This document shows, piece by piece, positions 19,868-36,439 of a stretch of 64,000 bases of DNA (its first letter is position 1; every line of letters begins with the position of its first letter). Source of the DNA: a virus; the IMG/VR virus record IMGVR_UViG_641201025_000001, positions 1 to 64,000 of that record, one strand, 5' to 3'. The notes beneath the pieces are model-generated. The model saw only the letters and a list, made by a program, of their open reading frames with translations, had not been told where the DNA came from and did not search any database. A program made the translations under genes and the position numbers.

Positions 19868-19882
19868 AGCAGCAGAAACGAG

Positions 19883-19916
19883 AAAGCCCCGGCGATGAAC
19901 CGGGGCTTTCTGCTTT
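19883..19916. terminator. bidirectional rho-independent terminator
   Basis: AAAGCCCCGG-cgatgaa-CCGGGGCTTT is followed by a T-run on the plus strand and an A-run upstream, which gives a T-run on the minus strand. It sits between convergent gene ends at 19867 (+) and 19986 (-). Confidence 0.75.
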
Positions 19917-19985: not shown

Positions 19986-20525
19986 TTAGAAACCGTCTGC
20001 CGGTGCCTTCCCGTCGGTCTCTGCTGCGTTTTTCGCCTTCTCGGTCGGCGTCAGCGGGAGTTGAGCCTTCAGAGTCTCCGCATTCGCGTAGAAATCGTTC
20101 AAGTCGCGGCCGGCGCGCGTATTGCCGTCTGCGTCGATGAACGTGTGACCCGCAAGCACGTTCAACTGGTCGATGACCTTCTGTTTCGTGCTGCATTTCG
20201 TGAACGGGGAACGCGCCAGCTTCAGCATTTCGACAATAGCATCCGGGATACTCCAAACCTCACCGAGTTTGAGAGCCTTCTTAACCCGATCATGCTCCGC
20301 GATGAAGTACGGGTTCGATTCGATTGCGATGATGTATTTCGGCATCATCTGATGGCCGAAATATTCGATACCGAAAACCTTCGAGAAAGATTCGCTGGCG
20401 TTGTAACCGACAACAACCTTCGCCACAAACTCGTCGTATTTTCGAGCATTGGCAATCGCGAACTTCTCATCGCGAAACAAGTAAGGCGGAAGAATCTCGC
20501 CTTCAACGTCGTCCCAATCTGACAT
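19986..20525 (-). CDS. hypothetical protein
   Basis: 179 aa; ATG at 20525 with AGGGG SD; last gene of the minus-strand block before the terminator. Confidence 0.5.
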   Translation of the reverse strand: MSDWDDVEGEILPPYLFRDEKFAIANARKYDEFVAKVVVGYNASESFSKVFGIEYFGHQMMPKYIIAIESNPYFIAEHDRVKKALKLGEVWSIPDAIVEMLKLARSPFTKCSTKQKVIDQLNVLAGHTFIDADGNTRAGRDLNDFYANAETLKAQLPLTPTEKAKNAAETDGKAPADGF

Positions 20526-20529
20526 TTCA

Positions 20530-21185
20530 ATAACCCCTGTGTGATCCGGTGCAGCGAATGACGCCGCGTGATGCGAGCGATTGTATCAGGCTATCGGAAT
20601 TTCGTGGCGATTGGATTGCGAGTGTATGGAAGATTATGAAAATTGGAGAAGTTTCGCTCTGCGTGCGTCGGGCTCGGAGGGTAACTAACGTCGCAGAGCC
20701 TTACTGGACAAGGGTTTGCGGGCCGTCGCCGCGCCATTAGTTACGCTGGAATTAGTTCGGACTCCGAGTGATAACTAAGCAGGCATCGCCGCTAAGTTCC
20801 TGATCCTGTTGGTTTTTCTTCTTTCTTTCTTCTTCTTAGTTATTCTTAGTTAAGAATAGTTAAGGAAGAGAAAGAGGTCGAATGACTTACGATGGCCGAC
20901 CCTCTTCGGAGACGCGTAACTAACTAACTATCGTAACTATCTCCCGCAAACCCTTGCGGCGTAAGGCTGAGCGGCTAGTTACGGTCATCACTAAGGGTTT
21001 TTACTCTGCGTTTGGTGAAATGCCCGCAAACCCTTGCGGCGTAAGGCTCTGAGCTAGGGGAACGGTAGGATTGTTTTCGGCCCTCGTATTTCCACTTTCT
21101 CACCATGCGCAACGTCCCACAAACAACCAATATTGCCACTCGAATTTCACTCCAAGCGGCAATATTTACCGTCATCCGTCAGAGG
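20530..21185. repeat. non-coding repeat field, putative replication origin
   Basis: There are at least 9 copies of a TAGTTA/TAACTA iteron core in both orientations. An AT-rich near-palindrome lies at 20810-20880. A 26-bp element CCCGCAAACCCTTGCGGCGTAAGGCT, with an internal hairpin, occurs twice directly (20946-20971, 21025-21050) and once inverted and degenerate (20697-20722). Confidence 0.55.
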
Positions 21186-22823
21186 TTAAAAACCCTCATG
21201 TTCTTGCTCACCAGCGGTCGGAAGTTCGTCGTCAATGATGCCAAGTCTGCGGTGTACTTCTTCTTCGTTGTATGCACCTTCGTACAGAAAGAATTTTCGG
21301 TTGCCGCCGCCTACGATTTTCTCGAAGCCGAGAGCCGTCATTTTCGGTTCCAAATGCTTGAAATTGACATCGAAGCGATATACAGAGCTAAGTCTCTGAA
21401 ACAGTTCAGCAGGATCAATCACCATTCCATGCCTCACATTTGTTCCGCGACCCTGATATACACGCATTTTGACGCCGCGAATCGCAGGCAAAAGAACGAT
21501 ATCCAGTTTGTCATCCCGGATCGTCCCTCGATCCATGACCATTTCTGAATGGTTGAAGTTCTTCACGTCGCGCACGACATCGTTCACGAACTTGATATAT
21601 CCTTTTTGGCCGAGAGATTCGTAAAACATCCGAGCTTCAGACAATACCTGCCAGAAATCAGTCTCGAAATTGCTGAAATCCGTCGTAAATTCCTTATCCC
21701 ACTGCGGCTGACCGCCTTCATCCGGCTTCTGCGCAACGAAGAAGGGATAAAATCGCCGATTGCCTGTATCGTCTCGATTCAGCCCGTCATACGAATTACC
21801 GTCCATCAAACAGACCCATTGTCGCGGCTGCTGAATATTCCCCTCGAACTTGTAGTTCAGGTTATCTGACGTGCGAGTAATGAAGTCTTTGATCTTGTTC
21901 AGGTCGCCTTTCGTGAAGCCGGTCATTTCGCCAATTTGAGCGATAACGGACTGCCCCGTGATTTCGCGCAGAAATTCATTCTTGTTGCCGGCCAGATCGA
22001 GCGGCATCGAATCGGCGTCCTTGTCGTTCAGCACGTATTGACAGATCAACCGGCCGAAATGCGACTTGCCGGCGTTCTGCCCGCCGATCAGGAATACCAC
22101 GAGCGGCGCGAAACTGCCGGGGTGCATGAGGCGCGCATAAAGGCTCGTGAAGAAGTAGCGCGACACCTTGCGGTTCAATTCCGTCTCGAACGGCTTGAAC
22201 AGGTCGATCATCAGCGTATCGAGGCGCGGCACGCCGTCCCATTCCGGAATGCGCTCGACAAGCGACTGAACCATGTCGTTTCGCTTCAGCGTCAGCGCAT
22301 ACTCGCGGATCGTGTCGCGAACAACCTTCGCCGACTGCTGTTTCATTCCGGCGGCGCTGACCGCTTGCAAAAGGTCGACGGCCGGATAGTGGTCGTCGAT
22401 GATCTCGCCGCGATGGTCGACGACGCGACCCACGAACTCGTCGAAGTGCGGGCGTTGCTTGCCTTCCCCGAAAAGCGCTTTGAATACGGCAATGCGGTTC
22501 ATATCGCACGAAACAGGCTGAGAAACGAACTCGTCACCACTCTTAATCCATTTCACGTCATCCCAATTGATCGCCTGAAGCGCCGCGAGAGCCTTCGCTC
22601 GCTTGATCAGATTCGGTTCGTTTTGGCGGATGTTCTCCGCTTCATTTGCGGTTGCGTTTTTGCGATCGACGACTGAGAGAATGTTTGCGCGGGCTTCTTT
22701 ATCCGCGACTACGGTCAAATCCGCCGATTCGTCTTCGAGGCTAATATCGAGTTCATCGTCGGGCGCAGCGTTATCGACAGGGCCTGCGTCGAGTTCTTTT
22801 TGTGAATCCTTTTTGCGTGTCAT
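21186..22823 (-). CDS. VirE / D5-type (P4 alpha C-terminal-like) replicative helicase
   Basis: Walker A (IGGQNAGKSHFGRLI); ATG at 22823 with GGAG SD (the ORF track's GTG at 22832 is an alternative). Domain order is typical of VapE/DUF927-type primase-associated helicases. Confidence 0.65.
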   Translation of the reverse strand: MTRKKDSQKELDAGPVDNAAPDDELDISLEDESADLTVVADKEARANILSVVDRKNATANEAENIRQNEPNLIKRAKALAALQAINWDDVKWIKSGDEFVSQPVSCDMNRIAVFKALFGEGKQRPHFDEFVGRVVDHRGEIIDDHYPAVDLLQAVSAAGMKQQSAKVVRDTIREYALTLKRNDMVQSLVERIPEWDGVPRLDTLMIDLFKPFETELNRKVSRYFFTSLYARLMHPGSFAPLVVFLIGGQNAGKSHFGRLICQYVLNDKDADSMPLDLAGNKNEFLREITGQSVIAQIGEMTGFTKGDLNKIKDFITRTSDNLNYKFEGNIQQPRQWVCLMDGNSYDGLNRDDTGNRRFYPFFVAQKPDEGGQPQWDKEFTTDFSNFETDFWQVLSEARMFYESLGQKGYIKFVNDVVRDVKNFNHSEMVMDRGTIRDDKLDIVLLPAIRGVKMRVYQGRGTNVRHGMVIDPAELFQRLSSVYRFDVNFKHLEPKMTALGFEKIVGGGNRKFFLYEGAYNEEEVHRRLGIIDDELPTAGEQEHEGF

Positions 22824-23010
22824 TTCTGTCACTCCGAAAAACGATAGGCCGAGTCGTGTTGAGTCGACGCATGGTTTTTCGGAGTCAGGTTGATCAATTG
22901 CATTGTTCTATCGATCCGAGTTGAGAGGTTGGGAAAATAAATTCCCCCTGATACCGGGCATAGCACAGGGGGAATCGATTCTATCACAAATCAGTTATGT
23001 AACAGAATGT

Positions 23011-25242
23011 TTATTTGCCCTCCACAATTTTCGCAATTTCTTTCCTGTGCGAACTGTGAAGCGTCAAATGACCGTTTCGCAGATTCCAGCCATGCAGCAG
23101 ACCCCGAAGCAATTTCACCGCTTCCCGCCCGCGCCGATGGTTGCGCTGCTTCTCCGCGCTGATCGCCTCTTTCTCGAAACCTACCAGACTATCGAACTTG
23201 ATGATCTGATTGATATCGTCGATGAACCGCTTGGCGTCGATCATCGCGGCGGGGTGCAGGTTGAGGCAGTGGCCGTTGCCAATGATCGACTGCGCGCCGA
23301 GCGTGAACGGCTCGAACTTGCGCACGTATCGCAACGTTTCCTTGGCGTCTTCGAGTTCCTCGTCGTCGCTCTGCATGGTTGCCAGCGTGTTCCGCAGAAT
23401 CGCAGCAGCCCGGCGCTCGTCATGCTTACGCAGCAGCGACACGAGATTCTCGCGCAGCAGAGTCGGCGACTGGCCGATTGCTTGCGCGCAGGCCATGATA
23501 TCGGCCACGGTCGCGCCCTCCGGCAGCTTGACGGGCTTCAGCTTGAGAATCTGATCGACGAGTTCAGCGAGCGTCGCGGTCTTGGCATTGGGGCCGTTCA
23601 GTGCGACGCTCAGTGTCGCCACGAGTTGATCGTAGTCTTGCCGCGCCTCGCGATATTCGTCGATCTTCTGCGCGAGTTCGTGTGCGCGCGAAGTCTGGTT
23701 ACGCAGTTCCGCCGCGACATTTTCATCGGCCGCGCCGAAGACGGTCATGACGAACTTGCCGGATCCCGCTTGCGGATGAGCGCTTTCCATGACCGTGAGC
23801 GGACGCACAACGCAGCCGAAAGGATAGGGGTCCGCCGGGGCAGCAGAAACGCCGGTCGTCACCTTCACGATGGGCTCACCTTCAGCCGTGCGGATGATCG
23901 TCGACTCGATATGCTTCAGATCGCCGGCATGCTGCTCGACACGACGCTCGACGAGCGTTCCTTGCGAACCAATCGAGGCGATCGTGTTTTGAAGGCTGCG
24001 GATGGTGCTCGCTTGGTTCGAGTGTTTTTGCGACAGGTCATCGCGCGTCGCTTGCAACTCGCGAATGTGATTCGCCTGATTCTGGTTCAAGCCGCTGAAG
24101 TAGTCGCGATCCTCACGAGCCTTCGCGAGTTGCTCCCGAAGTTGCTTTGTGACGCTTTCAAATCCGCTCAACTGATCAGCGAGCCGCGTGAATTCACCCT
24201 TGATCGAGTCGCGTTGCGCGAGGGCTTCAGCGAGCGCTCCTGCGCTGTTGCCGGCCGCGTTTCGGGCCGCGATCAGGTCTTCGTTCATCCGAGCGAGGTT
24301 TCGGTTCGCTGCGTCGCGCTGCGTGCATGCTTCGTTCAAGGCACGAGCAAGAACGTCGCCCGAATCTTGACTCGCGGCAAGCCTCTGACCACTTGCCGCG
24401 AGTTGCCGGGAATACTCGTTCAACTCGTCCTTCGTCGAAGCATGACGGCCTACTTCGTTTTGGAGTTGAGCCGCGAGCGAATCACGCTCCTTGCGCATTT
24501 CTCCGAGAGTTCGCAGCGCTCGTTCACCTTGAGCCTTCAACTCTTCGGTTTCGTTCCGCAAGCGCGTATTGCTGATTTGCACGCTTTCCAGATGCGTGCG
24601 CGAGTCGTCGCGTTCCTTTCGGGCGATTTGAAGCTGACGCTCATACGAGCCGCGAACTTCTTTCAGGTTGCGAATCTGTTCGTCGGCGACTTTCCCCTTT
24701 TCGACCGCAGCTTCGTACATCAGGCGCAGATCGTGAATGCGCTCTTCTGCCGTCGCATGCTCGCGGCGCTTCGCGGCGAACGCTTCCTCGAACTGACGCA
24801 CCGAGGCGACGAGTTCCGCTATTCGCGCTTCAGCTTCCGCCGACACCGCACGATTGCGCAAGGAAGCCAGTTCTTCGCGCACGGCCGGCGGGACGCGATA
24901 TTGATGGCCGTCCGAACAGTCGACGGCGACGAGCGAGCGCGAATCGCGTTCATGCGCATCGAGGATCGTTTTCACGCCCGCGCACATGTCGCTGATTACT
25001 TGGTCGAGGCTCTGATTGAACAGCGAAACTGCGACCGGATACGGCACGCCGACGCGATTCATCAGCGAACGCACGAGGTTACATTCTTTAGTCGACAGAC
25101 GCGGCCGAATGTCGCTCAGGTCGACGCGATGCGTCTGCGCGGTCGTGGTGTTTCGCAGGTGTTCAGCAAAGTCTTCCGTCACGGGTTCCCACGGAACGCC
25201 GGCCCCGGCACGCGCAAACCATTTGATATTGGGATCACTCAT
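23011..25242 (-). CDS. large coiled-coil protein (744 aa, SMC/Rad50-like heptad repeats without a recognisable ATPase head)
   Basis: ATG at 25242 with GGAGG 7 nt upstream. Long Ala/Glu/Arg/Leu/Gln-rich heptad-like stretches occur between residues ~180 and 480. Confidence 0.55.
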   Translation of the reverse strand: MSDPNIKWFARAGAGVPWEPVTEDFAEHLRNTTTAQTHRVDLSDIRPRLSTKECNLVRSLMNRVGVPYPVAVSLFNQSLDQVISDMCAGVKTILDAHERDSRSLVAVDCSDGHQYRVPPAVREELASLRNRAVSAEAEARIAELVASVRQFEEAFAAKRREHATAEERIHDLRLMYEAAVEKGKVADEQIRNLKEVRGSYERQLQIARKERDDSRTHLESVQISNTRLRNETEELKAQGERALRTLGEMRKERDSLAAQLQNEVGRHASTKDELNEYSRQLAASGQRLAASQDSGDVLARALNEACTQRDAANRNLARMNEDLIAARNAAGNSAGALAEALAQRDSIKGEFTRLADQLSGFESVTKQLREQLAKAREDRDYFSGLNQNQANHIRELQATRDDLSQKHSNQASTIRSLQNTIASIGSQGTLVERRVEQHAGDLKHIESTIIRTAEGEPIVKVTTGVSAAPADPYPFGCVVRPLTVMESAHPQAGSGKFVMTVFGAADENVAAELRNQTSRAHELAQKIDEYREARQDYDQLVATLSVALNGPNAKTATLAELVDQILKLKPVKLPEGATVADIMACAQAIGQSPTLLRENLVSLLRKHDERRAAAILRNTLATMQSDDEELEDAKETLRYVRKFEPFTLGAQSIIGNGHCLNLHPAAMIDAKRFIDDINQIIKFDSLVGFEKEAISAEKQRNHRRGREAVKLLRGLLHGWNLRNGHLTLHSSHRKEIAKIVEGK

Positions 25243-25499
25243 TTCTTTACCTCCGGCGCACGATAGCGCCAAGTGATGTTTTTCCGATACTGCAAATCGC
25301 TTCCCGGCGCTCGCGGCATGCCGGCAAGAACGACCCTCTTCACCACACGCGGGCAACGTTCCAGCCAACAGAAGAATTGCCACTCACCCGCTCGCGTCTC
25401 GCGAGGCCAGATCGCGAAGAAACGCGACCACTCGTCACGCTTCTCCTGATCCTCTGCCGCTGCGACCCGATCCGCATGTGTCCTGAACCGGATTCGCAT
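25239..25499 (-). CDS. hypothetical protein
   Basis: 86 aa; its stop overlaps the start of the coiled-coil gene (ATGA). Confidence 0.35.
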   Translation of the reverse strand: MRIRFRTHADRVAAAEDQEKRDEWSRFFAIWPRETRAGEWQFFCWLERCPRVVKRVVLAGMPRAPGSDLQYRKNITWRYRAPEVKK

Positions 25500-25502
25500 G
25501 CT

Positions 25503-25814
25503 CTACCCCGCTTTCGGCGAATCGATCGACTGCGCCGCGATGAGCGGGCGAACATCGCCGAGAATGCGCTCGTTCTTGTCCGTCGTGTACAGATACGACA
25601 CCTCAACGAAAACGCGATACAGCCATTTCGTATGTTCGCTCTTCGTCGCCGGCTCCGCGACACGGAAACCGGTAACAAAGCCGACATGGTCCTTGTCGTC
25701 GCTTCCGTGTCGAATCAGGACAAGCGCACCTTGCGGCGGCATGACGGGTTGACCGTTCCACGCCGGGGCCTCGTCGAGAATCTCGCGTACCTCGTTCGGG
25801 TAGCGCTTCGACAT
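25503..25814 (-). CDS. hypothetical protein
   Basis: 103 aa; its start overlaps the upstream stop (TAATG). Confidence 0.45.
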   Translation of the reverse strand: MSKRYPNEVREILDEAPAWNGQPVMPPQGALVLIRHGSDDKDHVGFVTGFRVAEPATKSEHTKWLYRVFVEVSYLYTTDKNERILGDVRPLIAAQSIDSPKAG

Positions 25815-26101
25815 TAATCGATCTCCACGTCGTCGATGTTGAAGATGTCCGTCTCTGCCTGCGCGCGGATCAGCTTCGCCGCGCTGACGAACTCCGAGCC
25901 GAGATACGTTTCGGCACGTTTCGCGATCTTGACCGACACGCGACGCTCACCCGTGAGGTAGCGATGCAGGTTCTGAATGTGCATCCCCATTGCTTCCGCC
26001 GCCGCGCTTTGCGTCATGTCGGCTTTCGCGATTGCGGCCTTCAGGATTTCTGCGGCCGTCTTCGGTGCCTTCACTGCCGTGTTTTGCTTCTTCGTTGCCA
26101 T
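25814..26101 (-). CDS. XRE-family HTH regulator (Cro/CI-like)
   Basis: HTH segment MTQSAAAEAMGMHIQNLHRYLTGERRVS. ATG at 26101 is preceded by GACGGAGAAGTGAGC; the ORF-track start at 26137 is an alternative. Confidence 0.55.
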   Translation of the reverse strand: MATKKQNTAVKAPKTAAEILKAAIAKADMTQSAAAEAMGMHIQNLHRYLTGERRVSVKIAKRAETYLGSEFVSAAKLIRAQAETDIFNIDDVEID

Positions 26102-26103
26102 GC

Positions 26104-27213
26104 TCACTTCTCCGTCCAAGTTGAAATTTCCGCCCATGCCGGGGCGGTTCGGTTTGCGCGGTTCAAGTCGCTCGTGATGACAGGTGAAACAATTTCATCC
26201 ACGAAAGCTGACCATCCCCACTTGAAAGTCTTGCGACACGTATCGTGTCCGCAGCCAAAAACGAAATCGACATCTGCACCGGGGATCGGGCCGCGAAAGT
26301 ACGCGCCGAACTCATCCCCGTTCGTGTGCATGTGGCCCCACGGGCAACGGATGCGATACTTGCCGGACATGTTCATCGAGACTTCGCCGCCGGAACCCTC
26401 ACCATACTTCATTTTGGAGAGTATCTTTTCAGCAGCCTTCAGATAGTACATGTCGAGCCGATGATCGCTCGGATCGATCTCTTGCGTCCGATAGATAGGC
26501 AGGACCGTGGTGAATCCGAATGCCTGCTCTATGTCCTCCATCGTGTATCGGTTCGAGTAGTCGGCGTGGAGTAGACGCACTTCAAACGGTCGGCCGTCTG
26601 CGCCCGCATACTTGAAAGCGCCGCCCGATCCGTGTCGCTTATTGTTGATGCCAATTGGCATCCGACCATAGCGGGAAACGTCTTTGATAGTGTTATCTCC
26701 GCCCTTCTTAAGCACCGACGAAACGAAACTACTGAGGAACGCTTTGAACTGTCGCATGTTTTCGACCGGCGTTGCCATGAAGTACCAAAGCTGATGATTC
26801 CCCGGACTCGTTTCGACAATTGCGGTCGGAACCAACTTCGAACAGATTTCCTCAAGGCCGAAATCACCTTTCGATCCCTTGCCCGTCCCGATATCGTCGA
26901 CCATGAGTGCAAGGCCATGCCCGAACGACGCTTCACCACGCCAATACCGCATCTGACCTTTGGCGTTCGCCGTGCGGATGGACGACGAGATACAGACGTA
27001 ACAGTTCGCTTTGTCATTGATGTATTTTCCATCCTTCCACGGAACCGGCCACCAACCGCCGTTCACCTTTTTGCCGTTCTCGTCGGTCTGTACCGTTGCC
27101 TCTTCAGCATAGCCGGCCATGACGCGCTCAGGCTCATCACCTTCCCACGGAATTCCTCGTCCGAGTTCGCGCAAGAACTCTTCGCATTTCACCAACTTCT
27201 CTTTCGGGGTCAT
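26104..27213 (-). CDS. AEP-type primase/polymerase (PrimPol-like) with C-terminal zinc-binding region
   Basis: Motifs resemble archaeo-eukaryotic primase motifs (LALMVDDIG; SPGNHQLWYF; …RYGRMP). C-terminal CPWGHMH…CGHDTC motif. ATG at 27213 is preceded by AGAGATAGCGGC. Confidence 0.5.
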   Translation of the reverse strand: MTPKEKLVKCEEFLRELGRGIPWEGDEPERVMAGYAEEATVQTDENGKKVNGGWWPVPWKDGKYINDKANCYVCISSSIRTANAKGQMRYWRGEASFGHGLALMVDDIGTGKGSKGDFGLEEICSKLVPTAIVETSPGNHQLWYFMATPVENMRQFKAFLSSFVSSVLKKGGDNTIKDVSRYGRMPIGINNKRHGSGGAFKYAGADGRPFEVRLLHADYSNRYTMEDIEQAFGFTTVLPIYRTQEIDPSDHRLDMYYLKAAEKILSKMKYGEGSGGEVSMNMSGKYRIRCPWGHMHTNGDEFGAYFRGPIPGADVDFVFGCGHDTCRKTFKWGWSAFVDEIVSPVITSDLNRANRTAPAWAEISTWTEK

Positions 27214-27338
27214 GCCGCTATCTCTGTTTTTCTGACTGAGAACGAACTCTATCATCAAGAAAAGTTCAGTGCAACCATTGTTTTCATCATAAACGACTGA
27301 TAAACTCTGATCCTCAACTCATAACGGAGATATTGAGC

Positions 27339-27907: not shown

Positions 27908-29059
27908 ATGTCGGAAATCATTTTCAACGACCAGCAGGAAGCCGCGATTCACAAGGTTCTTGACTGGTTCGAGAAACACCAACGGATCGCGACGCCGAAA
28001 GACTGGTTCTTTCTGAGCGGGTACGCAGGAACCGGCAAAACGACGCTCGCCAAGTACATCGCGCAGCAGGTGGGCGGAATGGATAAAGTGGCGTTCATCG
28101 CGCCTACTGGAAAGGCAGCGGCACGCCTGCGCGCCAAGGGCTGCTACACCGCAAAGACCGTTCACCAATTCGCGTTCCGCTACCTTGGGGATGACGCAGA
28201 CGAAGACCCGATGTTCGTCGCGAAGGGCTCGATCGACGAGAAGCCGAAACTGATCATTCTTGACGAAGCCGTGATGAATGGTCAGCGCGCGATGGATGCG
28301 ATTCTTTCACACAATATCGCGACTCTCGGGCTCGGAGATATCGGGCAACTTCCGCCTGTGAAGGACAAAGCGTTCTTCCATGAGGGGAACGTCGACGTGC
28401 TACTCGATCAGATCGAGCGCAACGCCGGGAACATCGTGAAAGCGTCCATGTTCTTGCGGCAGGGCAAGCGTCTGCCGATCCGCGAATATGACGACGTTGC
28501 GGTTCGCGCGCAACTTCCGAGCGATGATGAACTCATGGCCCTTACCGGCGAAGACGCCGTGATTCTGTGTGCATATAACACGACACGCGAATCGATCAAC
28601 GATCGAATTCGCAACCTTCAGGGTCATACGTCGCGCATGCCGAAAATCGGCGAGAAACTCGTCTGCACGTTCAATCAGCATTCGCACCGCTTGATGAATG
28701 GCGAACAAGTAATTCTCCTTGAACTGCGCGAGCCGGCATCGCACGAGGCAGAAGCATTCCACCCCGACGCGCCGGACGAAATGATGATCGCCCGTGTGAA
28801 GAATCTGTCGGACGGCCGCGAACACCTGTGCGCTTTCAATCCGCTTTCGTTCAGCGATGATGCGACGACCCGGATCGCCGCGCAGAAGCGCCACGGCGGG
28901 TTCGACTACGGCGGCTGCCTGACCGTGCACAAGGCACAGGGTTCCGAGTGGGAGCGTGTCGGCGTTATCGAGGAAACCCTTCGAAACATGCCGTATGAGA
29001 AAATCATGTACACGGCCGCTACGCGTGCAATTTCGAGATTGGAGGTTTATCGCGCATAA
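27908..29059 (+). CDS. Dda/RecD-like SF1 DNA helicase
   Basis: Walker A GYAGTGKTT; Walker B ILDEAVM; GDIGQLPPV; C-terminal TVHKAQGSEW. Confidence 0.75.
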   Translation: MSEIIFNDQQEAAIHKVLDWFEKHQRIATPKDWFFLSGYAGTGKTTLAKYIAQQVGGMDKVAFIAPTGKAAARLRAKGCYTAKTVHQFAFRYLGDDADEDPMFVAKGSIDEKPKLIILDEAVMNGQRAMDAILSHNIATLGLGDIGQLPPVKDKAFFHEGNVDVLLDQIERNAGNIVKASMFLRQGKRLPIREYDDVAVRAQLPSDDELMALTGEDAVILCAYNTTRESINDRIRNLQGHTSRMPKIGEKLVCTFNQHSHRLMNGEQVILLELREPASHEAEAFHPDAPDEMMIARVKNLSDGREHLCAFNPLSFSDDATTRIAAQKRHGGFDYGGCLTVHKAQGSEWERVGVIEETLRNMPYEKIMYTAATRAISRLEVYRA

Positions 29060-29084
29060 AATAGCGTAAATTTCATCCAATTTA

Positions 29085-29117
29085 GGGCGTTGCTCACAAG
29101 GCAACGCCCTTTTATTA
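29085..29117 (+). terminator. rho-independent terminator
   Basis: GGGCGTTGC-tcacaag-GCAACGCCC followed by TTTTATTA. Confidence 0.75.
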
Positions 29118-29168
29118 TGTCGTCACGTTCTTAAACGAACCCCAATCAATTTTACACAGGTGACGAAC

Positions 29169-29834
29169 ATGACGCATGCAGCAGCCCACAATCAGGAGCC
29201 GGAACTGACCGCCGAACAGAAGCGCGAGAAGCGTGCAGCAGAAAAGCAGGCGGCGAAGGACGAAGAGCGCCGAATCGCGCAGGAGAAGAAGGACGCCGAG
29301 CGCGCCGAGCGCGCCGCGAAGAAGCAGGCCGAGAAGGACGCCGAGAAGAAGGCGAAGGCCGACAAGAAGGACGCCGAGCGCGCACTCGCAGCAGCGCAGG
29401 CGGCGGAAGAAGCCAAGACCCGCAAGGAAAAGCGCGCGGCCGAGAAGGCAGAAGCCGAGAAGGTCGCAGCCGAGAAGAAGGCCGCAGCCGCCGAGCAACG
29501 TATCCTTGATCGTCAGGCCCGTCGCGACGCGCTCGCGGCCCGCCGTGAGTCGACCATCACGGAAGGCGAGCGCCGGCAGAAGGCGACGCATATCGTGTTC
29601 ACGGACAAGGGTTTGAGCAAGCCGCAGCAGTTCTCGGTTCGCGGCCGGATTCTGGCGTGGATTCGCGCGAACTGTCCGATCGGCGAACCGGTTGCGATCG
29701 ACCATATCGGCAAGGAACTCGAACCGATCCTGTTCGGCTCGTCGATCCGTTCGTTCCTGTCGAAGCTGGAAGAAACGTGTCACGTCGACTTCGTTTCGCT
29801 CGAGAGTGCGCCGGCGGACAAGCCCGCAGAATAA
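29169..29834 (+). CDS. Lys/Ala/Glu-rich histone-H1-like / nucleoid-associated-like protein
   Basis: N-terminal ~140 aa are low-complexity AEKxAxKxAE repeats; the C-terminal ~80 aa are a globular, possibly winged-helix domain. Terminators flank the gene on both sides. Confidence 0.5.
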   Translation: MTHAAAHNQEPELTAEQKREKRAAEKQAAKDEERRIAQEKKDAERAERAAKKQAEKDAEKKAKADKKDAERALAAAQAAEEAKTRKEKRAAEKAEAEKVAAEKKAAAAEQRILDRQARRDALAARRESTITEGERRQKATHIVFTDKGLSKPQQFSVRGRILAWIRANCPIGEPVAIDHIGKELEPILFGSSIRSFLSKLEETCHVDFVSLESAPADKPAE

Positions 29835-29855
29835 GCGTAAAATTTAACGCTTGGA

Positions 29856-29897
29856 AAAAGCCCCGAAAGGTGAGATACTTTCGGGGCTTTTTCTTTA
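29856..29897 (+). terminator. rho-independent terminator
   Basis: AAAGCCCCGAAAG-gtgagatac-TTTCGGGGCTTT followed by TTCTTT. Confidence 0.8.
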
Positions 29898-29924
29898 TAT
29901 ACAACTTTCGAGGATTATCCTGAT

Positions 29925-30413
29925 ATGTCCAAAATGATTCGCCGCCCGCTCTACATTTTCGATCTGGACGGAACGATCGCCCTGATCGACCATCGCCGCC
30001 CGCTCGTCGACCCGCAACGAAAGCCGACGAAAGAGGACTGGCTCCGCTTCTATCTGCTGTGTCCGATGGACGAGCCGAACGCGCCGGTCATCCAAACCAT
30101 GATGTCGCTCTACGAGCGCGGATGCGACATTCAAATCTGGTCGGCCCGTGACGAAATCGCGCGAGAACTGACCATCGCATGGTTGTGCCACTACACGACT
30201 TCGCCGCGACATACCGTCGATGGCTGGCTCACGCACATGCGGCCCAATACCGACACAACGCCTGACACGCAACTGAAGCGGAAATGGTTGAACGCGATGA
30301 CGCCGTTCGATCGTGAACGTCTGGTTGCGGTCTTCGACGATCGTGATAAGGTCGTCGAGTTCTGGCGCGCGGAAGGTGTCGCGTGCTTTCAGGTGGCGAA
30401 GGGGGACTTCTGA
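29925..30413 (+). CDS. HAD-superfamily polynucleotide 3'-phosphatase-like protein (T4 PseT phosphatase-domain-like)
   Basis: N-terminal motif I IFDLDGTI; 162 aa; AGGA SD. Confidence 0.55.
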   Translation: MSKMIRRPLYIFDLDGTIALIDHRRPLVDPQRKPTKEDWLRFYLLCPMDEPNAPVIQTMMSLYERGCDIQIWSARDEIARELTIAWLCHYTTSPRHTVDGWLTHMRPNTDTTPDTQLKRKWLNAMTPFDRERLVAVFDDRDKVVEFWRAEGVACFQVAKGDF

Positions 30414-30676
30414 TGGATGCGAAGAAATTCAATGCGGCGGTTGTTCACACGATCGGAGAAGGGCATTCGGGAGTTCAGGACGACACGTGCATTATCAACG
30501 TCGAGAACGAACCGAGCCGGCTCGCGAAAATCATTTTGCTCGCGCCTCAAAATGTCCGCATCGTGACGGATGTCGGTGCGTCTTCGCTTTCCGGATGGGA
30601 TGACGTGAAAGAGGTCATCTATTGGGAGCCGAATAGCCCCGGAGAAAACGCGGTCCTCGAACTGAAGTTCATGTGA
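30413..30676 (+). CDS. hypothetical protein
   Basis: 87 aa; TGATG overlap. Confidence 0.4.
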   Translation: MDAKKFNAAVVHTIGEGHSGVQDDTCIINVENEPSRLAKIILLAPQNVRIVTDVGASSLSGWDDVKEVIYWEPNSPGENAVLELKFM

Positions 30677-30893
30677 CCCTTGCGCGCGGCGAGTTCCGCG
30701 CGTATCATCACCTTTCACACATAACGGAGATAGCGAAATGAAACAGATTCCCCAAGCAGACAGCGAAATCGCGCATACGTCAAGGCTGGAACGATGCGAT
30801 GCGCGGACAGTCGCCGCGACATGATCGCGCCGTCACGCCCATCGCATACGCGATCGGTTACGCTGATGCGAAACAACCCAAAACGGAGAAGCA

Positions 30894-32342
30894 ATGAGTA
30901 ACGAAAATGCGAAGGTGGTTTTCGAGGTCGACGGCGGTCTGAGCGATAACCGCTGGCGTCAGTACGCGCGCAACAATCCGGACCTGTACGACGAACTCGC
31001 GTGCAACGACGAGCCGAATCCGGATGTCGTGGCCGAACTGCACCGCGTGCGCAAGGAAGGATACGGGATCGTCATCGCGAGCGAGCGCAACGCGTTGAAC
31101 CGCGAACCGCTCGTCAACTGGCTCATTCGCAACTGCGATCTGCGGCCCGGCGAATATACGCTCGTCGACGATGCGAAATACGATGCTGCGGAGCATTTCG
31201 AGTGTGTCGTCGCGATCTACACGCCGAGCGAGGCGTCGTGCGAACTGCACTACAGCAAGACGGACATTCCGACGCCGCGCCTGTTCCTGATCGACAAGGG
31301 TCGCGTCGTCGACTACAGCGAAAAGCGCCGTGCACTCGAAAACGAAGCGAAACGCCTGAAACTCTTTCCGCAAGACATCGCGATCGACGCGAAAGGAGAA
31401 ATCATCGTCAACGCTCCGAAGGTCAGCATGAAAGCGATCGTGCCGGCCCCCGACGATCTGAACGCAGTCTTCGACGCGGCGGACGATCTCGGTTCATCGG
31501 AAGACGACCCGGTTCATCACCAAGAAGGCGATCCCGAAGAAGGTTACACCGAAAGCCCCGAAGAAAACGGCCCGTCCACCGCGAGCCCCGTTTTCTCGTC
31601 GCCCGTCGCGAACAAGGTCATCGTCCTCTACGTGACCGAAGACGGAAACAGCGAACTCGGTCAGCAAATTACGTTCGCCGTCCGCAATCTCGTGAAGGAA
31701 GGCTTCCCGATCGCGGTGATTGCTCACGCCGGCCGCGAACGAAGCATCGACGTTCACGAGCGCATCCGGAAGTTCTTCCCGGAAATTCAGCAAGGTCAAG
31801 CGCTCATCGCGTTCCGTGAAGACGGCATTCCCTACGATTCGCACGTGGCGAAATCGCTCATCGATCTGAACACGATGACGGGAAACAATGGCGCAAGCAT
31901 CGTCGCGTATTTCTCCAACGTGGAGCATACGGCCGCAATGTGCGACGGGTTCGTGGGGGCGGGTATCGCCGCGACGACGCCGGCCGAAGTCGAGTCGATG
32001 GCGCAAACCCTGAAATTGATTGCGCAGCATTCTCGCGGCGAATTCGGCGCAGGCCAAGCGGAACTCAGCGGGGGCCGCACGAACTACTATCTGATCCGCG
32101 TCGAAAATCCGCAGCGTGAAGAGCAGCCGGCCTATACGGCGGAATGCGAAGACATCATCGAAGCGCTGAACATGACGTTCGACGAAGGCTGCGAGTTTAA
32201 GGCTCTGTGGCGCACTGCCGCCGCGCGCCTTGGCAACCGGAAACAAGGTCATACGGCGCTGTATGACGCGCAAAAACGCGTGCATTACGCAACGCGCAGC
32301 CTGAAGCAAGAAGAGCGCAAGAAAGACTTGCTCGAAAGCTGA
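30894..32342 (+). CDS. two-domain protein: degenerate HAD-phosphatase-like N-terminal domain plus unknown ~330-aa C-terminal domain
   Basis: The N-terminal ~110 aa align with the 29925 protein (VVFEVDGGL vs YIFDLDGTI; PNPDVVAELHRVRKEGYGIVIASER vs PNAPVIQTMMSLYERGCDIQIWSARDE). The catalytic Asp is replaced by Glu. ACGGAGAAGCA ATG. Confidence 0.5.
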   Translation: MSNENAKVVFEVDGGLSDNRWRQYARNNPDLYDELACNDEPNPDVVAELHRVRKEGYGIVIASERNALNREPLVNWLIRNCDLRPGEYTLVDDAKYDAAEHFECVVAIYTPSEASCELHYSKTDIPTPRLFLIDKGRVVDYSEKRRALENEAKRLKLFPQDIAIDAKGEIIVNAPKVSMKAIVPAPDDLNAVFDAADDLGSSEDDPVHHQEGDPEEGYTESPEENGPSTASPVFSSPVANKVIVLYVTEDGNSELGQQITFAVRNLVKEGFPIAVIAHAGRERSIDVHERIRKFFPEIQQGQALIAFREDGIPYDSHVAKSLIDLNTMTGNNGASIVAYFSNVEHTAAMCDGFVGAGIAATTPAEVESMAQTLKLIAQHSRGEFGAGQAELSGGRTNYYLIRVENPQREEQPAYTAECEDIIEALNMTFDEGCEFKALWRTAAARLGNRKQGHTALYDAQKRVHYATRSLKQEERKKDLLES

Positions 32343-32715
32343 TACTACGTTAATCTAGAGTCTCACGTAGGGCATGCGTGAAACTCCGAAGCGTGGTTGA
32401 TGAGGGGCAGTAAAAGGAATGGCTCTCCTTGTTAGATGATCAGGCATCGAGCGAATTAGCGTGCGGAGTGAGTGGCGCACTTAAATGAATCTCGCAGGCT
32501 CGCAGTAATCGCGCATAAACGCGAAGACCCAAAGTTTGCAGATACCACAAACCAATTTCAAGAATCGGCCGCGCGCGTCGCGGTTGCACGGGCAAACAGG
32601 TGCATTAAACGAGGATAGACAGGGCATCTAGACGCAGAAGAGCAAGAACGCGGAGAATCTTCGTTTTTGTGATGACGATGCGGTCCTGAAAGTCTTACTG
32701 TTCGTCGCTTCCCCA

Positions 32716-32753
32716 AAGGGCAGATAGGTTCTCACAACTATCTGCCCTTTTTC
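32716..32753 (+). terminator. rho-independent terminator
   Basis: AAGGGCAGATAG-gttctcacaa-CTATCTGCCCTT followed by TTTC. Confidence 0.75.
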
Positions 32754-32780
32754 ATAACCGATAGAACAGGAACCCCGAAA

Positions 32781-33374: not shown

Positions 33375-33567
33375 AGACTGCGCGAACCTGACGATCGACG
33401 GCATCACGTGCGCTCGCGGACCGTATATCAAAGGCGTCGACCCGGTAACGGGGAACGAAATTCGCGATTACAAAGTAATCGACTATGCGCGGCAAGAGCG
33501 CAAAGGGATCATGCCGTGGAAGTGCGGCAAGAACGCTCGTTTCTTCAAGGCAAAGGAGCAAAAATGA
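33361..33567 (+). CDS. small zinc-ribbon protein (MNFCKDC family; paralog of 17420-17647)
   Basis: See 17420. Overlaps both the 3' end of the exonuclease gene and the start of dnaE. Confidence 0.45.
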   Translation: MNFCKDCANLTIDGITCARGPYIKGVDPVTGNEIRDYKVIDYARQERKGIMPWKCGKNARFFKAKEQK

Positions 33568-36434: not shown

Positions 36435-36439
36435 GCCTA

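What the first reader, a model, noticed from the sequence alone, without database searches (positions are those of the whole stretch)
19986..27213. Self-contained satellite-like replicon (PrimPol, regulator, VirE helicase, ori) alongside the phage's own DnaE/DnaQ/Dda replication set
The minus-strand block encodes an AEP PrimPol-like primase, a Cro-like HTH, small ORFs, a large coiled-coil protein and a VirE/D5-type helicase next to the iteron field. This gene set is characteristic of P4-like satellites and PICIs. The plus strand, separately, encodes a C-family polymerase, a proofreading exonuclease, an SF1 helicase, SNF2 and VRR-NUC. Carrying two complete initiation/elongation toolkits is atypical and suggests a mosaic origin or a dedicated initiation versus elongation division of labour.
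Basis: inference. Interest (0 to 1): 0.55.

Follow-up and report, generated by a model that had tools for sequence, protein, structure and literature searches.

The report
Phage's own replication-initiation and packaging arm
This stretch of Burkholderia phage BcepF1 is not a hitch-hiking satellite. It is the phage family's standard primase, helicase, packaging/origin site and small-terminase arm, and it works as one set with the polymerase genes on the opposite strand.

Summary
The window is Burkholderia phage BcepF1.
- a RepB'-type AEP primase (26104-27213);
- an XRE HTH protein, two small ORFs and a coiled-coil ORFan;
- a VapE/D5-type SF3 helicase (21186-22823), whose closest solved relative is the SaPI1 self-loading helicase Rep1;
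- a 660-bp repeat-rich gap after the helicase.

The first gene of the interval (19986-20525) is the small terminase. The phage has one primase, one hexameric helicase and one polymerase, not two toolkits.

Primase, helicase, gap and TerS sit in the same order, next to the divergent Dda...DnaQ-DnaE-SNF2 arm, in about 357 phage genomes from several genera. Only gp64-67 are lineage-specific cargo.

The gap is a conserved cis element: an AT-rich palindrome flanked by outward-facing GCGGC repeats (29 loci; Fisher 1e-10 in the discovery set, 2e-20 in the hold-out set). In the relative JG024 the packaging start maps inside the homologous gap. The layout also matches a SaPI-type origin.

Integrase-bearing relatives in Burkholderiaceae chromosomes carry helicase-gap-TerS (one also the primase) with no DnaE arm within 10 kb.

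Verdict: ordinary and largely known, with modest new detail.

The parts
19881..19911 (-). Strong terminator hairpin that ends the leftward arm just after TerS. It lies within the inverted repeat 19873-19919, between the convergent early genes and TerS.
   Evidence: 13-bp stem followed by a T-run; I4.
19986..20525 (-). Small terminase (TerS), 179 aa. RefSeq instead annotates four small plus-strand ORFs here (BcepF1.058-.061).
   Evidence: PDB 7UXE (E217 TerS) E 2.9e-23. 35% identity to SN ORF76 and 34% to WFC gp107. phrog_4783. Homologue found in 359 phage records.
20526..21185 (.). Conserved non-coding cis element between the helicase and TerS genes. It is homologous to the gap where the packaging start maps in JG024, and it also has an origin-like layout.
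   Evidence: PMC10913387 (read starts at JG024 59,376, inside its 59008-59976 gap).
20824..20875 (.). AT-rich palindromic centre. It carries three TAACTA repeats 10-11 bp apart and a polypurine/polypyrimidine run. The sequence is conserved in Maja and in the distant Burkholderia phage WTB.
   Evidence: (I3), (alignment columns 600-700; hairpin -9.8 kcal/mol, z -2.35).
20562..20792 (-). TerS-side arm: three GCGGCR copies on the minus strand (20562-20567, 20727-20732, 20787-20792), plus one copy of the 26-30-nt repeat (20694-20723) bracketed by GTAACTA at 20681 and TAGTTAC at 20738.
20916..21048 (+). Helicase-side arm: two identical 26-nt repeats (20943-20968, 21023-21048), each containing GCGGCG on the plus strand (20956, 21036). 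GTAACTA lies at 20916 and 20933, and TAGTTAC at 20976.
21129..21166 (-). Terminator-like hairpin directly after the helicase stop codon. It contains a further plus-strand GCGGCA at 21156.
21186..22823 (-). gp63, a VapE/D5-type SF3 helicase. It is the phage's only hexameric replicative-type helicase and the candidate self-loading initiator.
   Evidence: Pfam PF05272 E 2e-29. 7PDS E 6e-17. Model pLDDT 82, Foldseek to 7PDS 1e-16 over about 480 columns, then poxvirus D5/E5, NrS-1 and E1.
22934..22974 (-). Hairpin (TTCCCCCTG...CAGGGGGAA) followed by a T-rich tail, between gp64 and gp63. A terminator is annotated at the equivalent place in Maja.
   Evidence: Read from the sequence; Maja annotation.
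23011..26101 (-). Lineage-specific cargo inserted between primase and helicase: gp64 coiled-coil ORFan, gp65, gp66 and gp67 (XRE HTH). Among the genomes inspected, seen only in BcepF1 and Maja. GC is 0.595 against 0.559 for the genome.
   Evidence: The same interval holds 0 to about 15 unrelated ORFs in other genera.
26104..27213 (-). gp68, a RepB'-type AEP primase and the only primase in the phage. The catalytic DD and ETSPxNxQ motifs are invariant, and the C-terminal part carries an invariant Cys/His motif (C290, H296, C321, H323).
   Evidence: 190 homologue clusters; for the 120 listed, the longest contig is at most about 75 kb.
27214..27338 (.). Divergent control region between the leftward arm (primase...TerS) and the rightward arm (DUF7352, Dda, PNK, DnaQ, DnaE, gp79, SNF2).
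   Evidence: The same divergent junction is seen in SN, WFC, WTB, Maja, Spe5P4 and Gekk3-15.
27908..38451 (+). Partner arm: Dda-like SF1 helicase (27908-29059), DnaQ-type exonuclease (32781-33374), DnaE-type polymerase (33564-36434), gp79 small nuclease candidate (36440-36877) and SNF2 translocase (36874-38451).
   Evidence: PMC12390725 for the Pbunavirus homologues.

Best explanation
The block 19986-27213 is the conserved leftward arm of the single replication and packaging system of BcepF1 and its relatives (PB1-like/Lindbergviridae-type myoviruses). It is not a satellite or a second replicon.

**Layout.** A short divergent control region (27214-27338) feeds two arms.
- One arm encodes the only primase (gp68, RepB'-type AEP) and the only hexameric helicase (gp63, SF3, homologous to the SaPI1 self-loading helicase Rep1). 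A cis element and the small terminase follow.
- The other arm encodes Dda, DnaQ, DnaE, a small nuclease candidate and SNF2.

**Proposed mechanism (inferred).**
1. gp63 assembles on the repeat-flanked AT-rich element and unwinds the DNA 3'->5'.
2. gp68 primes.
3. DnaE/DnaQ elongate.
4. Dda, SNF2 and the nuclease process forks and concatemers.
5. TerS and TerL start headful packaging.

**The cis element (20526-21185).** It is an AT-rich palindrome flanked by outward-facing GCGGC(R) repeats.
- By homology it is the region where the packaging start maps in Pbunavirus JG024, so I take it to be the pac region (about 0.7).
- Its layout is also that of a SaPI-type origin, so I think it also serves as the origin (about 0.45).
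- The two roles are not exclusive.

**Cargo.** gp64-67 are lineage-specific cargo in a variable slot, not a replicon regulator.

**Shown versus inferred.** Shown here: gene identities, conservation and synteny, and the motif architecture. Inferred: which protein binds the repeats, origin activity, and the order of events.
For: **Identity of the proteins:**

**One copy of each function:**

**Family-wide co-occurrence.**
- Primase is found in 364 phage records (357 near full length), full-length DnaE in 356 and TerS in 359, with near-identical breakdowns by host genus.
- The VapE helicase shows about 42% identity in Pbunavirus and Escherichia members of that set.

**Same order and divergent junction.** Seen in Maja, SN, WFC, WTB, Carpasina, Spe5P4, JG024 and Gekk3-15. 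In 50 IMG/VR loci the primase lies upstream in 40 and TerS downstream in 36; several of the rest are cut contigs or have larger inserts.

**Primase family looks phage-confined.** For the 120 listed of 190 clusters the longest contig is at most about 75 kb, and there is one weak plasmid hit.

**No satellite hallmarks.** BcepF1 has no integrase, AlpA or invertase homologue.

**Cis element.**
- The repeats are unique to the gap.
- In 11 loci, CGCGGC counts are left fwd 1/rev 13 and right fwd 33/rev 0 (Fisher 1e-10).
- GCGGC is the top-ranked polarity-switching 5-mer: 85 outward against 7 inward, with copies on both sides in 11/11 loci.
- In the hold-out set of 18 non-redundant IMG/VR loci: left fwd 18/rev 39, right fwd 78/rev 0, Fisher 2e-20, and 18/18 loci have more outward than inward copies.

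**Literature.**
- PMC12390725 describes the Pbunavirus homologues as one replication machinery, with the VapE-like protein as candidate initiator.
- PMC9371898 defines the SaPI pri-rep-ori layout.
- PMC10913387 places 36/161 long-read starts and a pac fragment at JG024 59,376. One search shows this lies inside the homologous gap, between the innermost inverted GCGGC copies.
- PMC6521218 reports a PhageTerm pac site in an AT-rich region that 'could be a replication origin'.
Against: - No experiment exists for BcepF1 itself.
- GCGGC/CGCGGC is only about 1.6-fold denser in the gaps than in the rest of these genomes. The signal is the orientation, not the abundance, and BcepF1 itself has only six GCGGCR copies.
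- The loci are related, so the counts are not fully independent.
- The Banzai study found no PhageTerm peak in its Pbunavirus, and purified E217 TerS did not bind DNA in vitro (PMC12390725, PMC9611059). Both weaken a simple 'TerS binds the repeats' reading.
- When ORFs are inserted between helicase and TerS, the element stays next to the helicase in three lineages and next to TerS in three. Linkage therefore does not tell pac from ori.
- No sigma-70-like promoter was found in the block, so the transcription units are inferred from terminators only.
Confidence: 0.85

Rival explanations
1. The block is a satellite-like (P4/PICI-type) replicon captured by the phage, or a recent mosaic acquisition, and it duplicates the phage's own replication toolkit.
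For: gp63 is homologous to the SaPI1 Rep1 helicase, and the order primase - helicase - iteron-flanked AT-rich region - TerS mirrors SaPIs (PMC9371898). VapE homologues with 40-56% identity lie beside integrases in Burkholderiaceae chromosomes.
Against: - Nothing is duplicated: there is one primase, one hexameric helicase and one polymerase.
- There is no integrase or AlpA.
- The arm and the DnaE arm co-occur in the same arrangement in about 357 genomes across at least six genera.
- The primase family was seen almost only on contigs of phage-genome size.
- GC content of the core genes is close to the genome mean.
- The integrated relatives carry tail genes and TerL, so they are prophage-like, not satellites.
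Confidence: 0.03
2. Deep modular origin. The arm primase-helicase-cis element-TerS is an old cassette of temperate Burkholderiaceae/Proteobacteria phages that replicate with the host polymerase. The Dda...DnaQ-DnaE-SNF2 arm was added when the lineage became virulent. The genome is therefore mosaic, but anciently so, and the 'extra' part is the polymerase arm.
For: - L011 (Caballeronia chromosome) has integrase - primase (49% identity) - VapE - gap - TerS - invertase - tail genes.
- No DnaE, DnaQ, Dda or SNF2 hit was found within +-10 kb in any of five integrated loci.
- L008, L009 and L012 carry VapE-gap-TerS with the same GCGGC polarity.
- In an NJ tree, BcepF1 VapE falls in a Burkholderiaceae clade that mixes phages and integrated elements.
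- The Maja authors suspected a temperate ancestry (PMC7862960).
Against: - Only five integrated loci were seen, each within +-10 kb, so a polymerase gene further away cannot be excluded.
- The NJ trees have no support values and the direction of change is not resolved.
- Loss of the DnaE arm in temperate derivatives is equally possible.
Confidence: 0.3
3. The gap 20526-21185 is only the packaging (pac) region. TerS binds the GCGGC arrays on both sides and TerL cuts in the central spacer, as in SPP1 pacL-pacC-pacR. The origin lies elsewhere.
For: - JG024 long-read starts and a pac restriction fragment map inside the homologous gap (PMC10913387).
- PhageTerm placed a pac site in an AT-rich region in SCUT-S1 (PMC6521218).
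- TerS is the next gene in most genomes.
- The TerS-side arm is the richer and strictly one-directional array (78 fwd, 0 rev).
Against: - E217 TerS showed no appreciable DNA binding in vitro (PMC9611059).
- In Carpasina-like genomes the element is more than 3 kb from TerS and directly after the helicase gene.
- In the genomes inspected, no other large repeat-bearing non-coding region was noticed near the replication genes.
- The layout fits the published definition of a SaPI ori (PMC9371898).
Confidence: 0.35
4. The gap is only the replication origin, SaPI-type: the gp63 C-terminal domain binds the outward-facing repeats and two hexamers load across the AT-rich palindrome. Packaging starts without a specific site.
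For: - gp63 is homologous to Rep1 over nearly its whole length.
- Penta/hexanucleotide repeats in opposite orientation on each side of an AT-rich centre, downstream of the helicase gene, match PMC9371898.
- Integrated relatives without the RepB-type primase keep the motif.
- The Banzai study saw no PhageTerm peak (PMC12390725).
Against: The JG024 read-start cluster and pac fragment lie inside the homologous gap (PMC10913387). In WFC-like genomes the element is 4-9 kb from the helicase gene and next to TerS.
Confidence: 0.15
5. IncQ-like priming. The 26-30-nt repeats on opposite strands are ssiA/ssiB-type hairpin sites recognised by the RepB'-type primase.
For: The primase catalytic domain is of the RepB' family. 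The three repeats lie on opposite strands around the AT-rich centre. RSF1010 uses two inverted 40-nt ssi sites (PMC8567376).
Against: - The predicted hairpins are weak and no better than shuffles (z -1.6, -1.1, -0.65), and the third copy folds differently.
- Among the seven genomes compared, the 26-mers were seen only in BcepF1 and Maja.
- No RepA or RepC homologues are present.
Confidence: 0.07

Closest known systems
SaPI1 (PICI) pri-rep-ori replicon; Rep1 self-loading SF3 helicase, PDB 7PDS
   Same: gp63 is homologous to Rep1 by sequence (6e-17) and by fold (1e-16, about 480 aligned columns). A primase gene lies upstream on the same strand. The helicase gene is followed by an AT-rich centre with short GC-rich repeats pointing in opposite directions on each side. 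A TerS gene belongs to the same element.
   Different: - It sits in a 72-kb phage that has a full virion gene set and no integrase, and it is that phage's only primase/helicase set.
- Among the genomes inspected, only BcepF1 and Maja have these four cargo genes between primase and helicase.
- The element works together with a phage-encoded DnaE/DnaQ.
- The cis element coincides with the mapped packaging start of a relative.
Replication and packaging genes of Pbunavirus (PB1-like) phages: Banzai PBanzai_075/077/058/059, E217 TerS (7UXE), JG024 putative pac site
   Same: The proteins are orthologous (primase about 66%, VapE about 42%, DnaE about 56%, TerS about 35% identity). The order and the divergent junction are the same. 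A homologous AT-rich, GCGGC-flanked gap lies between helicase and TerS.
   Different: BcepF1 and Maja carry a different cargo between primase and helicase (gp64-67). They also have their own AT-rich repeats (TAACTA) and 26-nt repeats. BcepF1's RefSeq annotation misses TerS.
IncQ plasmid RSF1010 RepB' primase with ssiA/ssiB in oriV
   Same: The catalytic AEP domain is of the same Pfam family (PF16793). The DD and ETSP-N-Q motifs are conserved, and RepB' is the best structural match.
   Different: There is no RepA or RepC. The C-terminal part carries an invariant Cys/His motif, in contrast to the helix-bundle domain described for RepB'. No supported ssi-type hairpins were found. The helicase partner is SF3.
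Satellite phage P4 (alpha primase-helicase, ori/crr)
   Same: A D5/VapE-clan helicase acts with a primase at an iteron-type origin.
   Different: In P4 the primase and helicase are fused in one protein. P4 is also described as having an integrase and genes that exploit its helper phage's capsid. These P4 features are from general knowledge; no direct comparison with P4 was run. BcepF1 has no integrase, and its primase and helicase are separate genes.
SPP1-type pac region (pacL-pacC-pacR). This comparison is from general knowledge, not from a paper read here.
   Same: Repeat-bearing arms flank a central region where the first terminase cut is made, next to the terS gene.
   Different: No TerS binding has been shown. 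The arms are inverted around an AT-rich palindrome. In some relatives the element is several kb from terS.

Membership tests
SaPI/PICI-type pri-rep-ori replicon | Rep is an SF3 hexameric helicase homologous to SaPI Rep | tested here: met
   phmmer to 7PDS 5.8e-17. Foldseek to 7PDS chains 1e-16 to 2.5e-15 over about 480 columns.
SaPI/PICI-type pri-rep-ori replicon | C-terminal winged-helix domain of Rep that binds the iterons (self-loading) | tested here: inconclusive
   The model has an H-E-E-H-H-E-E-H module at residues 438-527, and the alignment to Rep1 runs nearly full length. DNA binding is not testable here.
SaPI/PICI-type pri-rep-ori replicon | Primase gene upstream of rep on the same strand | tested here: met
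   gp68 lies upstream of gp63. The same holds in 40 of 50 IMG/VR loci.
SaPI/PICI-type pri-rep-ori replicon | ori downstream of rep: short repeats on both sides of an AT-rich centre, in opposite orientation | tested here: met
   The sequence layout is met. GCGGC is 85 outward against 7 inward in 11 loci, and 117 against 18 in 18 hold-out loci. Origin activity is not testable here.
SaPI/PICI-type pri-rep-ori replicon | The element is a satellite: integrase/att, no virion genes of its own, helper dependence | tested here: not met
   No integrase or AlpA homologue. The block is part of a 72-kb genome with head, tail, lysis and TerL genes. It is conserved in all relatives examined.
P4-like satellite replicon | Fused alpha-type primase-helicase, together with integrase and helper-exploitation genes (P4 features taken from general knowledge) | tested here: not met
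   Primase and helicase are separate genes 3.3 kb apart. No integrase was found.
IncQ (RSF1010) RepA/RepB'/RepC-oriV system | RepB'-type AEP catalytic domain | tested here: met
   PF16793 E 1.3e-39. 3H25/3H20 by sequence, E 0.04-0.09. Foldseek to 3H20 1.2e-6. The catalytic residues are invariant.
IncQ (RSF1010) RepA/RepB'/RepC-oriV system | ssiA/ssiB hairpin sites on opposite strands | tested here: not met
   The 26-mer hairpins are not better than shuffles, and the third copy folds differently.
IncQ (RSF1010) RepA/RepB'/RepC-oriV system | RepA helicase and RepC initiator | tested here: not met
   No such families were found among the proteins of the block or among the large proteins of the genome that were scanned.
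PB1-like/Lindbergviridae-type core replication and packaging arm | Orthologous primase, VapE helicase and TerS co-occurring with DnaE/DnaQ/Dda/SNF2 in conserved order | tested here: met
   357/356/359 records; synteny.
PB1-like/Lindbergviridae-type core replication and packaging arm | Packaging start inside the helicase-TerS gap | not testable with these tools
   Mapped only in JG024 (PMC10913387). One search shows that position 59,376 lies in the homologous gap. No read data are available for BcepF1.

The most novel reading that the evidence does not exclude
The conserved helicase-TerS gap is a dual-purpose site. A SaPI-type origin, built from outward-facing GCGGC iterons around an AT-rich palindrome, coincides with the packaging start. 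The arm primase-helicase-site-TerS would then be an ancient, portable 'replicate-and-package' cassette. This cassette also exists without any phage polymerase in integrase-bearing elements of Burkholderiaceae. On this reading the DnaE arm, not the 'satellite-like' arm, is the later addition in the virulent lineage.
Probability: 0.3. Interest if true: 0.5.

Novelty: already known. Interest (0 to 1): 0.27.

Why it matters
The finding does not reveal a satellite or a redundant replicon, so its main claim should be retired. Four things remain useful.

1. **A concrete candidate pac/ori element.** It is defined at base level, with a family-wide oriented GCGGC motif, for a phage group (Pbunavirus and relatives) that is widely considered for phage therapy and is being rebuilt synthetically. 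Knowing which 200-700 bp must be kept intact, and where cargo can be inserted, matters for that work. The slot between primase and helicase holds 0 to about 15 ORFs in different genera.
2. **A corrected annotation.** The BcepF1 small terminase is missing from RefSeq.
3. **A shared initiation logic.** A SaPI-type helicase and site can serve a large virulent phage, prophage-like relatives and satellites alike.
4. **Integrated relatives in Burkholderiaceae.** They bear on whether BcepF1-like phages come from temperate ancestors, which is a safety question for therapy.

Tried and rejected
- **ssiA/ssiB-like hairpins in the 26-nt repeats.** Folding gave weak hairpins no better than shuffles. Among the seven genomes compared, the repeats were seen only in BcepF1 and Maja.
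- **A known RNA in the block.** Rfam gave only far-sub-threshold miRNA-like hits on the palindrome.
- **Defence-system membership of gp63-gp68.** PADLOC found nothing.
- **Plasmid origin of the primase.** There was one weak hit (24% identity) in 72,556 plasmids.
- **VRR-NUC for gp79.** No Pfam hit even at E <= 1. PHROGs only gives a family labelled 'DNA helicase'.
- **Sigma-70 promoters in the block.** None were found.
- **Simple k-mer enrichment across the gaps.** AT-rich words and ACTTAG/GCGGCAA rose to the top, but no strongly over-represented word emerged. The signal appeared only when orientation relative to the AT-rich centre was scored.
- **Telling pac from ori by linkage.** The element follows the helicase in three lineages and TerS in three. 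Distant VapE phages (27-32% identity) have either no gap or AT-rich gaps without GCGGC. A candidate 'TerS-only' relative, Aeromonas phage Gekk3-15, turned out to have the full arm.
- **GC skew.** It tracks the direction of transcription and does not locate an origin.
- **Not obtainable.** The E217 terminase paper (PMC10026623) was not held, and P0201 could not be located on a contig.

Full report
**What the sequence is.** The 7.3-kb interval is 100% identical to Burkholderia phage BcepF1 (NC_009015/EF153632, 72,415 bp, genus Bcepfunavirus), and window coordinates equal record coordinates. The only other nucleotide-level match among 50,697 phage records is Burkholderia phage Maja, at 80% identity over 41% of the interval.

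**Checking the observation: minus strand.** Reading from 27213 down, the minus strand encodes the following.
- gp68 (26104-27213) matches the RepB DNA-primase N-terminal domain PF16793 at E 1.3e-39.
- gp67 (25814-26101) is an XRE-type HTH (HTH_3, 1.7e-7).
- gp66 and gp65 are small ORFs without a Pfam family.
- gp64 (23011-25242) gives only weak hits to coiled-coil families.
- gp63 (21186-22823) matches the VapE-like domain PF05272 at 2e-29.

**The primase and helicase in more detail.**
- The primase hits RSF1010 RepB' weakly by sequence (3H25/3H20, E 0.04-0.09).
- An AlphaFold model built on 19 homologues (pLDDT 85) has RepB' 3H20 (1.2e-6), the AEP domain of cyanophage S-2L PrimPol and 3H25 as its best PDB matches.
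- In the alignment, the DD pair (D106, D107), the ETSPxNxQ motif and D173/D178/R181 are invariant. So is a C-terminal Cys/His set (C290, H296, C321, H323).
- The helicase hits one solved protein strongly, chain 7PDS (5.8e-17). According to PMC9371898 this is the SaPI1 Rep1-DNA complex.
- Its model (pLDDT 82) matches 7PDS at 1e-16 over about 480 columns. Poxvirus D5/E5, ASFV PrimPol, NrS-1, SaPI5 PriRep5 and papillomavirus E1 follow.

**Checking the observation: plus strand.** DnaE (PF07733/PF17657), a DnaQ-type exonuclease (RNase_T), an SF1 Dda-like helicase and an SNF2 protein are confirmed. VRR-NUC for gp79 is not: there is no Pfam hit even at E <= 1.

- The first gene of the interval, 19986-20525(-), is the small terminase. 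It matches PDB 7UXE, the decameric TerS of Pseudomonas phage E217, at 2.9e-23 (PMC9611059). It is 34-35% identical to SN ORF76 and WFC gp107. RefSeq annotates four short plus-strand ORFs over it, whereas Maja's annotation has the minus-strand gene.
- There are not two toolkits. Scanning the block and all other large proteins found one primase, one hexameric replicative-type helicase, one polymerase and one proofreading exonuclease. Dda and SNF2 are accessory. The two strands hold complementary halves of one replisome.

**Is it a conserved core or an acquisition?**
- tblastn against the phage collection finds the primase in 364 records (357 near full length, 56-67% identity outside the genus), full-length DnaE in 356 and TerS in 359.
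- The breakdown by host genus is nearly the same for all three: Pseudomonas about 295, Escherichia 27, Serratia 9, Burkholderia 6, Xanthomonas 6, Pantoea 3 and others.
- The VapE helicase shows about 42% identity in Pbunavirus and Escherichia members of that set.
- The gene order is the same in Maja, Pbunavirus SN and JG024, Wifcevirus WFC, Burkholderia phage WTB, Carpasinavirus, Myosmarvirus Spe5P4 and Aeromonas phage Gekk3-15. In each, SNF2 - small nuclease candidate - DnaE - DnaQ ... PNK ... Dda reads one way, and primase ... VapE - large gap - TerS reads the other way from a divergent junction.
- In 50 family-level IMG/VR loci the primase lies upstream of VapE in 40 and TerS downstream in 36. 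Several of the rest are cut contigs or have larger inserts.
- For the 120 listed of 190 primase clusters in the 5.8-billion-protein collection, the longest contig is at most about 75 kb, that is, phage-genome size. Only one weak hit exists among 72,556 plasmids.
- BcepF1 has no homologue of the integrases, AlpA or invertase found in the integrated relatives.
- Published work on Pbunavirus Banzai already describes the homologues as one replication machinery. [quoted passage not shown]

**The variable part.**
- The interval between primase and helicase holds no ORF in Carpasina, one in SN and WTB, five in WFC and about 15 in Spe5P4.
- Among the genomes inspected, gp64-67 are seen only in BcepF1 and Maja. 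Maja's gp64 homologue is 230 residues shorter.
- They have no PADLOC hits and a slightly higher GC content (0.595 against 0.559).
- The HTH protein and the coiled-coil protein are therefore cargo in a plastic slot, not parts of a conserved replicon.
- A hairpin with a T-rich tail at 22934-22974(-) separates them from gp63. A terminator is annotated at the same place in Maja.

**The 'iteron field' (20526-21185).** The repeats are far beyond chance. The 13-mer CCGCAAACCCTTG occurs three times in 64 kb, all here: two direct 26-nt copies at 20943 and 21023, and one inverted copy at 20694-20723. GTAACTA occurs six times in the window, five of them between 20681 and 20982, against 0.83 expected. The centre is an AT-rich palindrome (20824-20875; -9.8 kcal/mol as a hairpin, z -2.35). 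It carries three TAACTA units 10-11 bp apart and a purine run. This core is conserved in Maja and even in WTB, whose TerS is only 30% identical. Terminator-like hairpins follow gp63 (21129-21166) and TerS (19881-19911).

**A family-wide signature of the gap: discovery set.** Every relative examined has one large non-coding gap (600-1080 bp) between VapE and TerS, with inverted repeats around an AT-rich centre. I oriented 11 loci (seven phages, four integrated elements) from VapE to TerS and took the AT-richest 60 bp as the centre.
- CGCGGC is found 1 time forward and 13 times reverse on the helicase side, and 33 times forward and 0 times reverse on the TerS side (Fisher 1e-10).
- An unbiased scan of all 5-, 6- and 7-mers ranks GCGGC first (85 outward against 7 inward, copies on both sides in 11/11 loci) and CGCGGC first among 6-mers (46 against 1).

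**A family-wide signature of the gap: hold-out set.** In 18 non-redundant IMG/VR loci not used for discovery, GCGGC is 18 forward and 39 reverse on the left, and 78 forward and 0 reverse on the right (Fisher 2e-20). Outward copies exceed inward copies in 18 of 18 loci.

**Caveat on the motif.** The word is common in these genomes (3.3 per kb against 5.2 per kb in the gaps). The evidence is the orientation switch, not the density, and related loci are not fully independent.

**BcepF1's own copies.** All six GCGGCR copies obey the rule: plus strand at 20956, 21036 and 21156, and minus strand at 20787-92, 20727-32 and 20562-67.

**What the gap does.** Two readings have support.
- **Origin.** PMC9371898 defines the SaPI origin as lying immediately downstream of rep, with penta- or hexanucleotide iterons on both sides of an AT-rich region pointing in opposite directions. 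The iterons are bound by the winged-helix C-terminal domain of the self-loading helicase. The BcepF1 layout fits this point by point, and gp63 is a Rep1 homologue with a helix/strand module at residues 438-527. Integrated relatives that lack the RepB-type primase keep the motif. This points to the helicase or TerS, rather than the primase, as the reader of the motif.
- **Packaging site.** In Pbunavirus JG024, 36 of 161 long reads start at 59,376 +-5, and a matching pac restriction fragment was seen (PMC10913387). I mapped that position inside JG024's 59008-59976 gap. It lies between the innermost inverted GCGGC copies (59300 reverse, 59487 forward) and 44-100 bp from the AT-richest window. [quoted passage not shown]
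- **Against a simple pac reading.** E217 TerS did not bind DNA in vitro (PMC9611059), and Banzai gave no PhageTerm peak (PMC12390725).
- **Linkage does not help.** With ORFs inserted between the two genes, the element stays with the helicase in Carpasina, L038 and L062, and with TerS in WFC, L028 and L052.
- **My position.** I take the element to be the pac region (about 0.7) and probably also the origin (about 0.45). The roles are not exclusive.
- **Rejected alternative.** An IncQ-like reading, with the 26-mers as ssi hairpins for the RepB'-type primase, is not supported.

**Integrated relatives.**
- VapE homologues at 39-56% identity occur in Burkholderiaceae genomes.
- In Burkholderia sp. 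1B3 (L008) the order is integrase - AlpA - VapE - 1-kb gap - TerS homologue - ... - tape-measure-like and gp101-like tail genes.
- A 15-kb Logan contig (L009) has an integrase, tail genes, VapE, the gap and TerS.
- Caballeronia sp. LZ035 (L011) has host genes - integrase - RepB-type primase (49%) - VapE - gap - TerS - invertase - tail genes.
- Paraburkholderia (L013) has a TerL homologue 2.5 kb after VapE.
- None of the five has a DnaE, DnaQ, Dda or SNF2 hit within +-10 kb.
- In a simple NJ tree, BcepF1's VapE groups with Burkholderiaceae phages and integrated elements. The L011 primase branches outside most virulent phages (no support values).
- These look like prophage relatives, some possibly degraded, not satellites. 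They fit the Maja authors' suspicion of a temperate ancestry (PMC7862960).
- They show that the leftward arm can exist without the polymerase arm, which leaves open an old modular history.

**Verdict.** However, the block is the resident, family-wide initiation and packaging arm of a known phage. It is complementary to the DnaE arm, not redundant with it. The gene content and its role are already annotated or published for close relatives. The increments from this work are the base-level definition of the conserved cis element and its oriented GCGGC motif, the missing TerS annotation, and the integrated relatives.

Noticed in passing
window 19895-20740 (+) versus 19986-20525 (-): RefSeq BcepF1 annotates four short plus-strand ORFs (BcepF1.058-.061). 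The first three lie over what is in fact a conserved minus-strand small-terminase gene. Maja's annotation has the minus-strand gene but calls it hypothetical.
   Followed up: yes
window 20975-21175 (-), BcepF1.062; also JG024 gp77/gp78 (L095 4206-4932): ORFs are annotated inside the conserved non-coding gap. BcepF1.062 has no PHROG family and overlaps the 26-nt repeats and a terminator hairpin. These are probably not genes.
   Followed up: partly
L008 (Burkholderia sp. 1B3, GCA_036631535), L009, L011 (Caballeronia sp. LZ035), L012 (Cupriavidus pauculus UM1), L013 (Paraburkholderia sp. EB58): Integrated, integrase-bearing relatives carry VapE-gap-TerS (plus the RepB-type primase in L011) together with BcepF1-like tail genes or TerL. 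No DnaE arm lies within 10 kb. L008 has no head genes between TerS and the tape-measure gene, so it may be a degraded prophage or a compact element.
   Followed up: partly
window 23011-26101 (-): gp64-67 (coiled-coil ORFan, two small ORFs, XRE HTH) fill a slot between primase and helicase that holds 0 to about 15 unrelated ORFs in other genera. GC is 0.595 against 0.559 for the genome. Their function is unknown, and there are no defence-system hits.
   Followed up: partly
L006 (Carpasina) 5076-5186: About ten tandem 11-mers (CACCAACCCAG / AACAACCCCAG) lie inside Carpasina's helicase-proximal gap, next to three CCTCGCGGCGTAT/CATCGCGGCGTAA repeats.
   Followed up: no
window 2908-3936 (+): A ParB-like protein (phrog_1033, 1.4e-62) is encoded among the early genes of a phage that has no integrase. 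It is conserved in Maja.
   Followed up: no
window 36440-36877 (+), gp79: This small protein is labelled 'DNA helicase' in GenBank and PHROGs. It has no Pfam hit at all, so its identity is unsettled.
   Followed up: partly
window 1-64000 (composition): Cumulative GC skew peaks near 19-21 kb and again near 43 kb, with a trough near 27-29 kb. These are the points where the direction of transcription switches, so the skew cannot be used to place an origin here.
   Followed up: partly
window 33564-36434 (+), gp78: The DnaE-type polymerase matches only the core and finger domains of Pol III alpha (residues 251-668). The first about 250 residues have no family hit. A 68-aa ORF (33361-33567) sits between DnaQ and DnaE in BcepF1 and is not annotated in Maja.
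   Followed up: no
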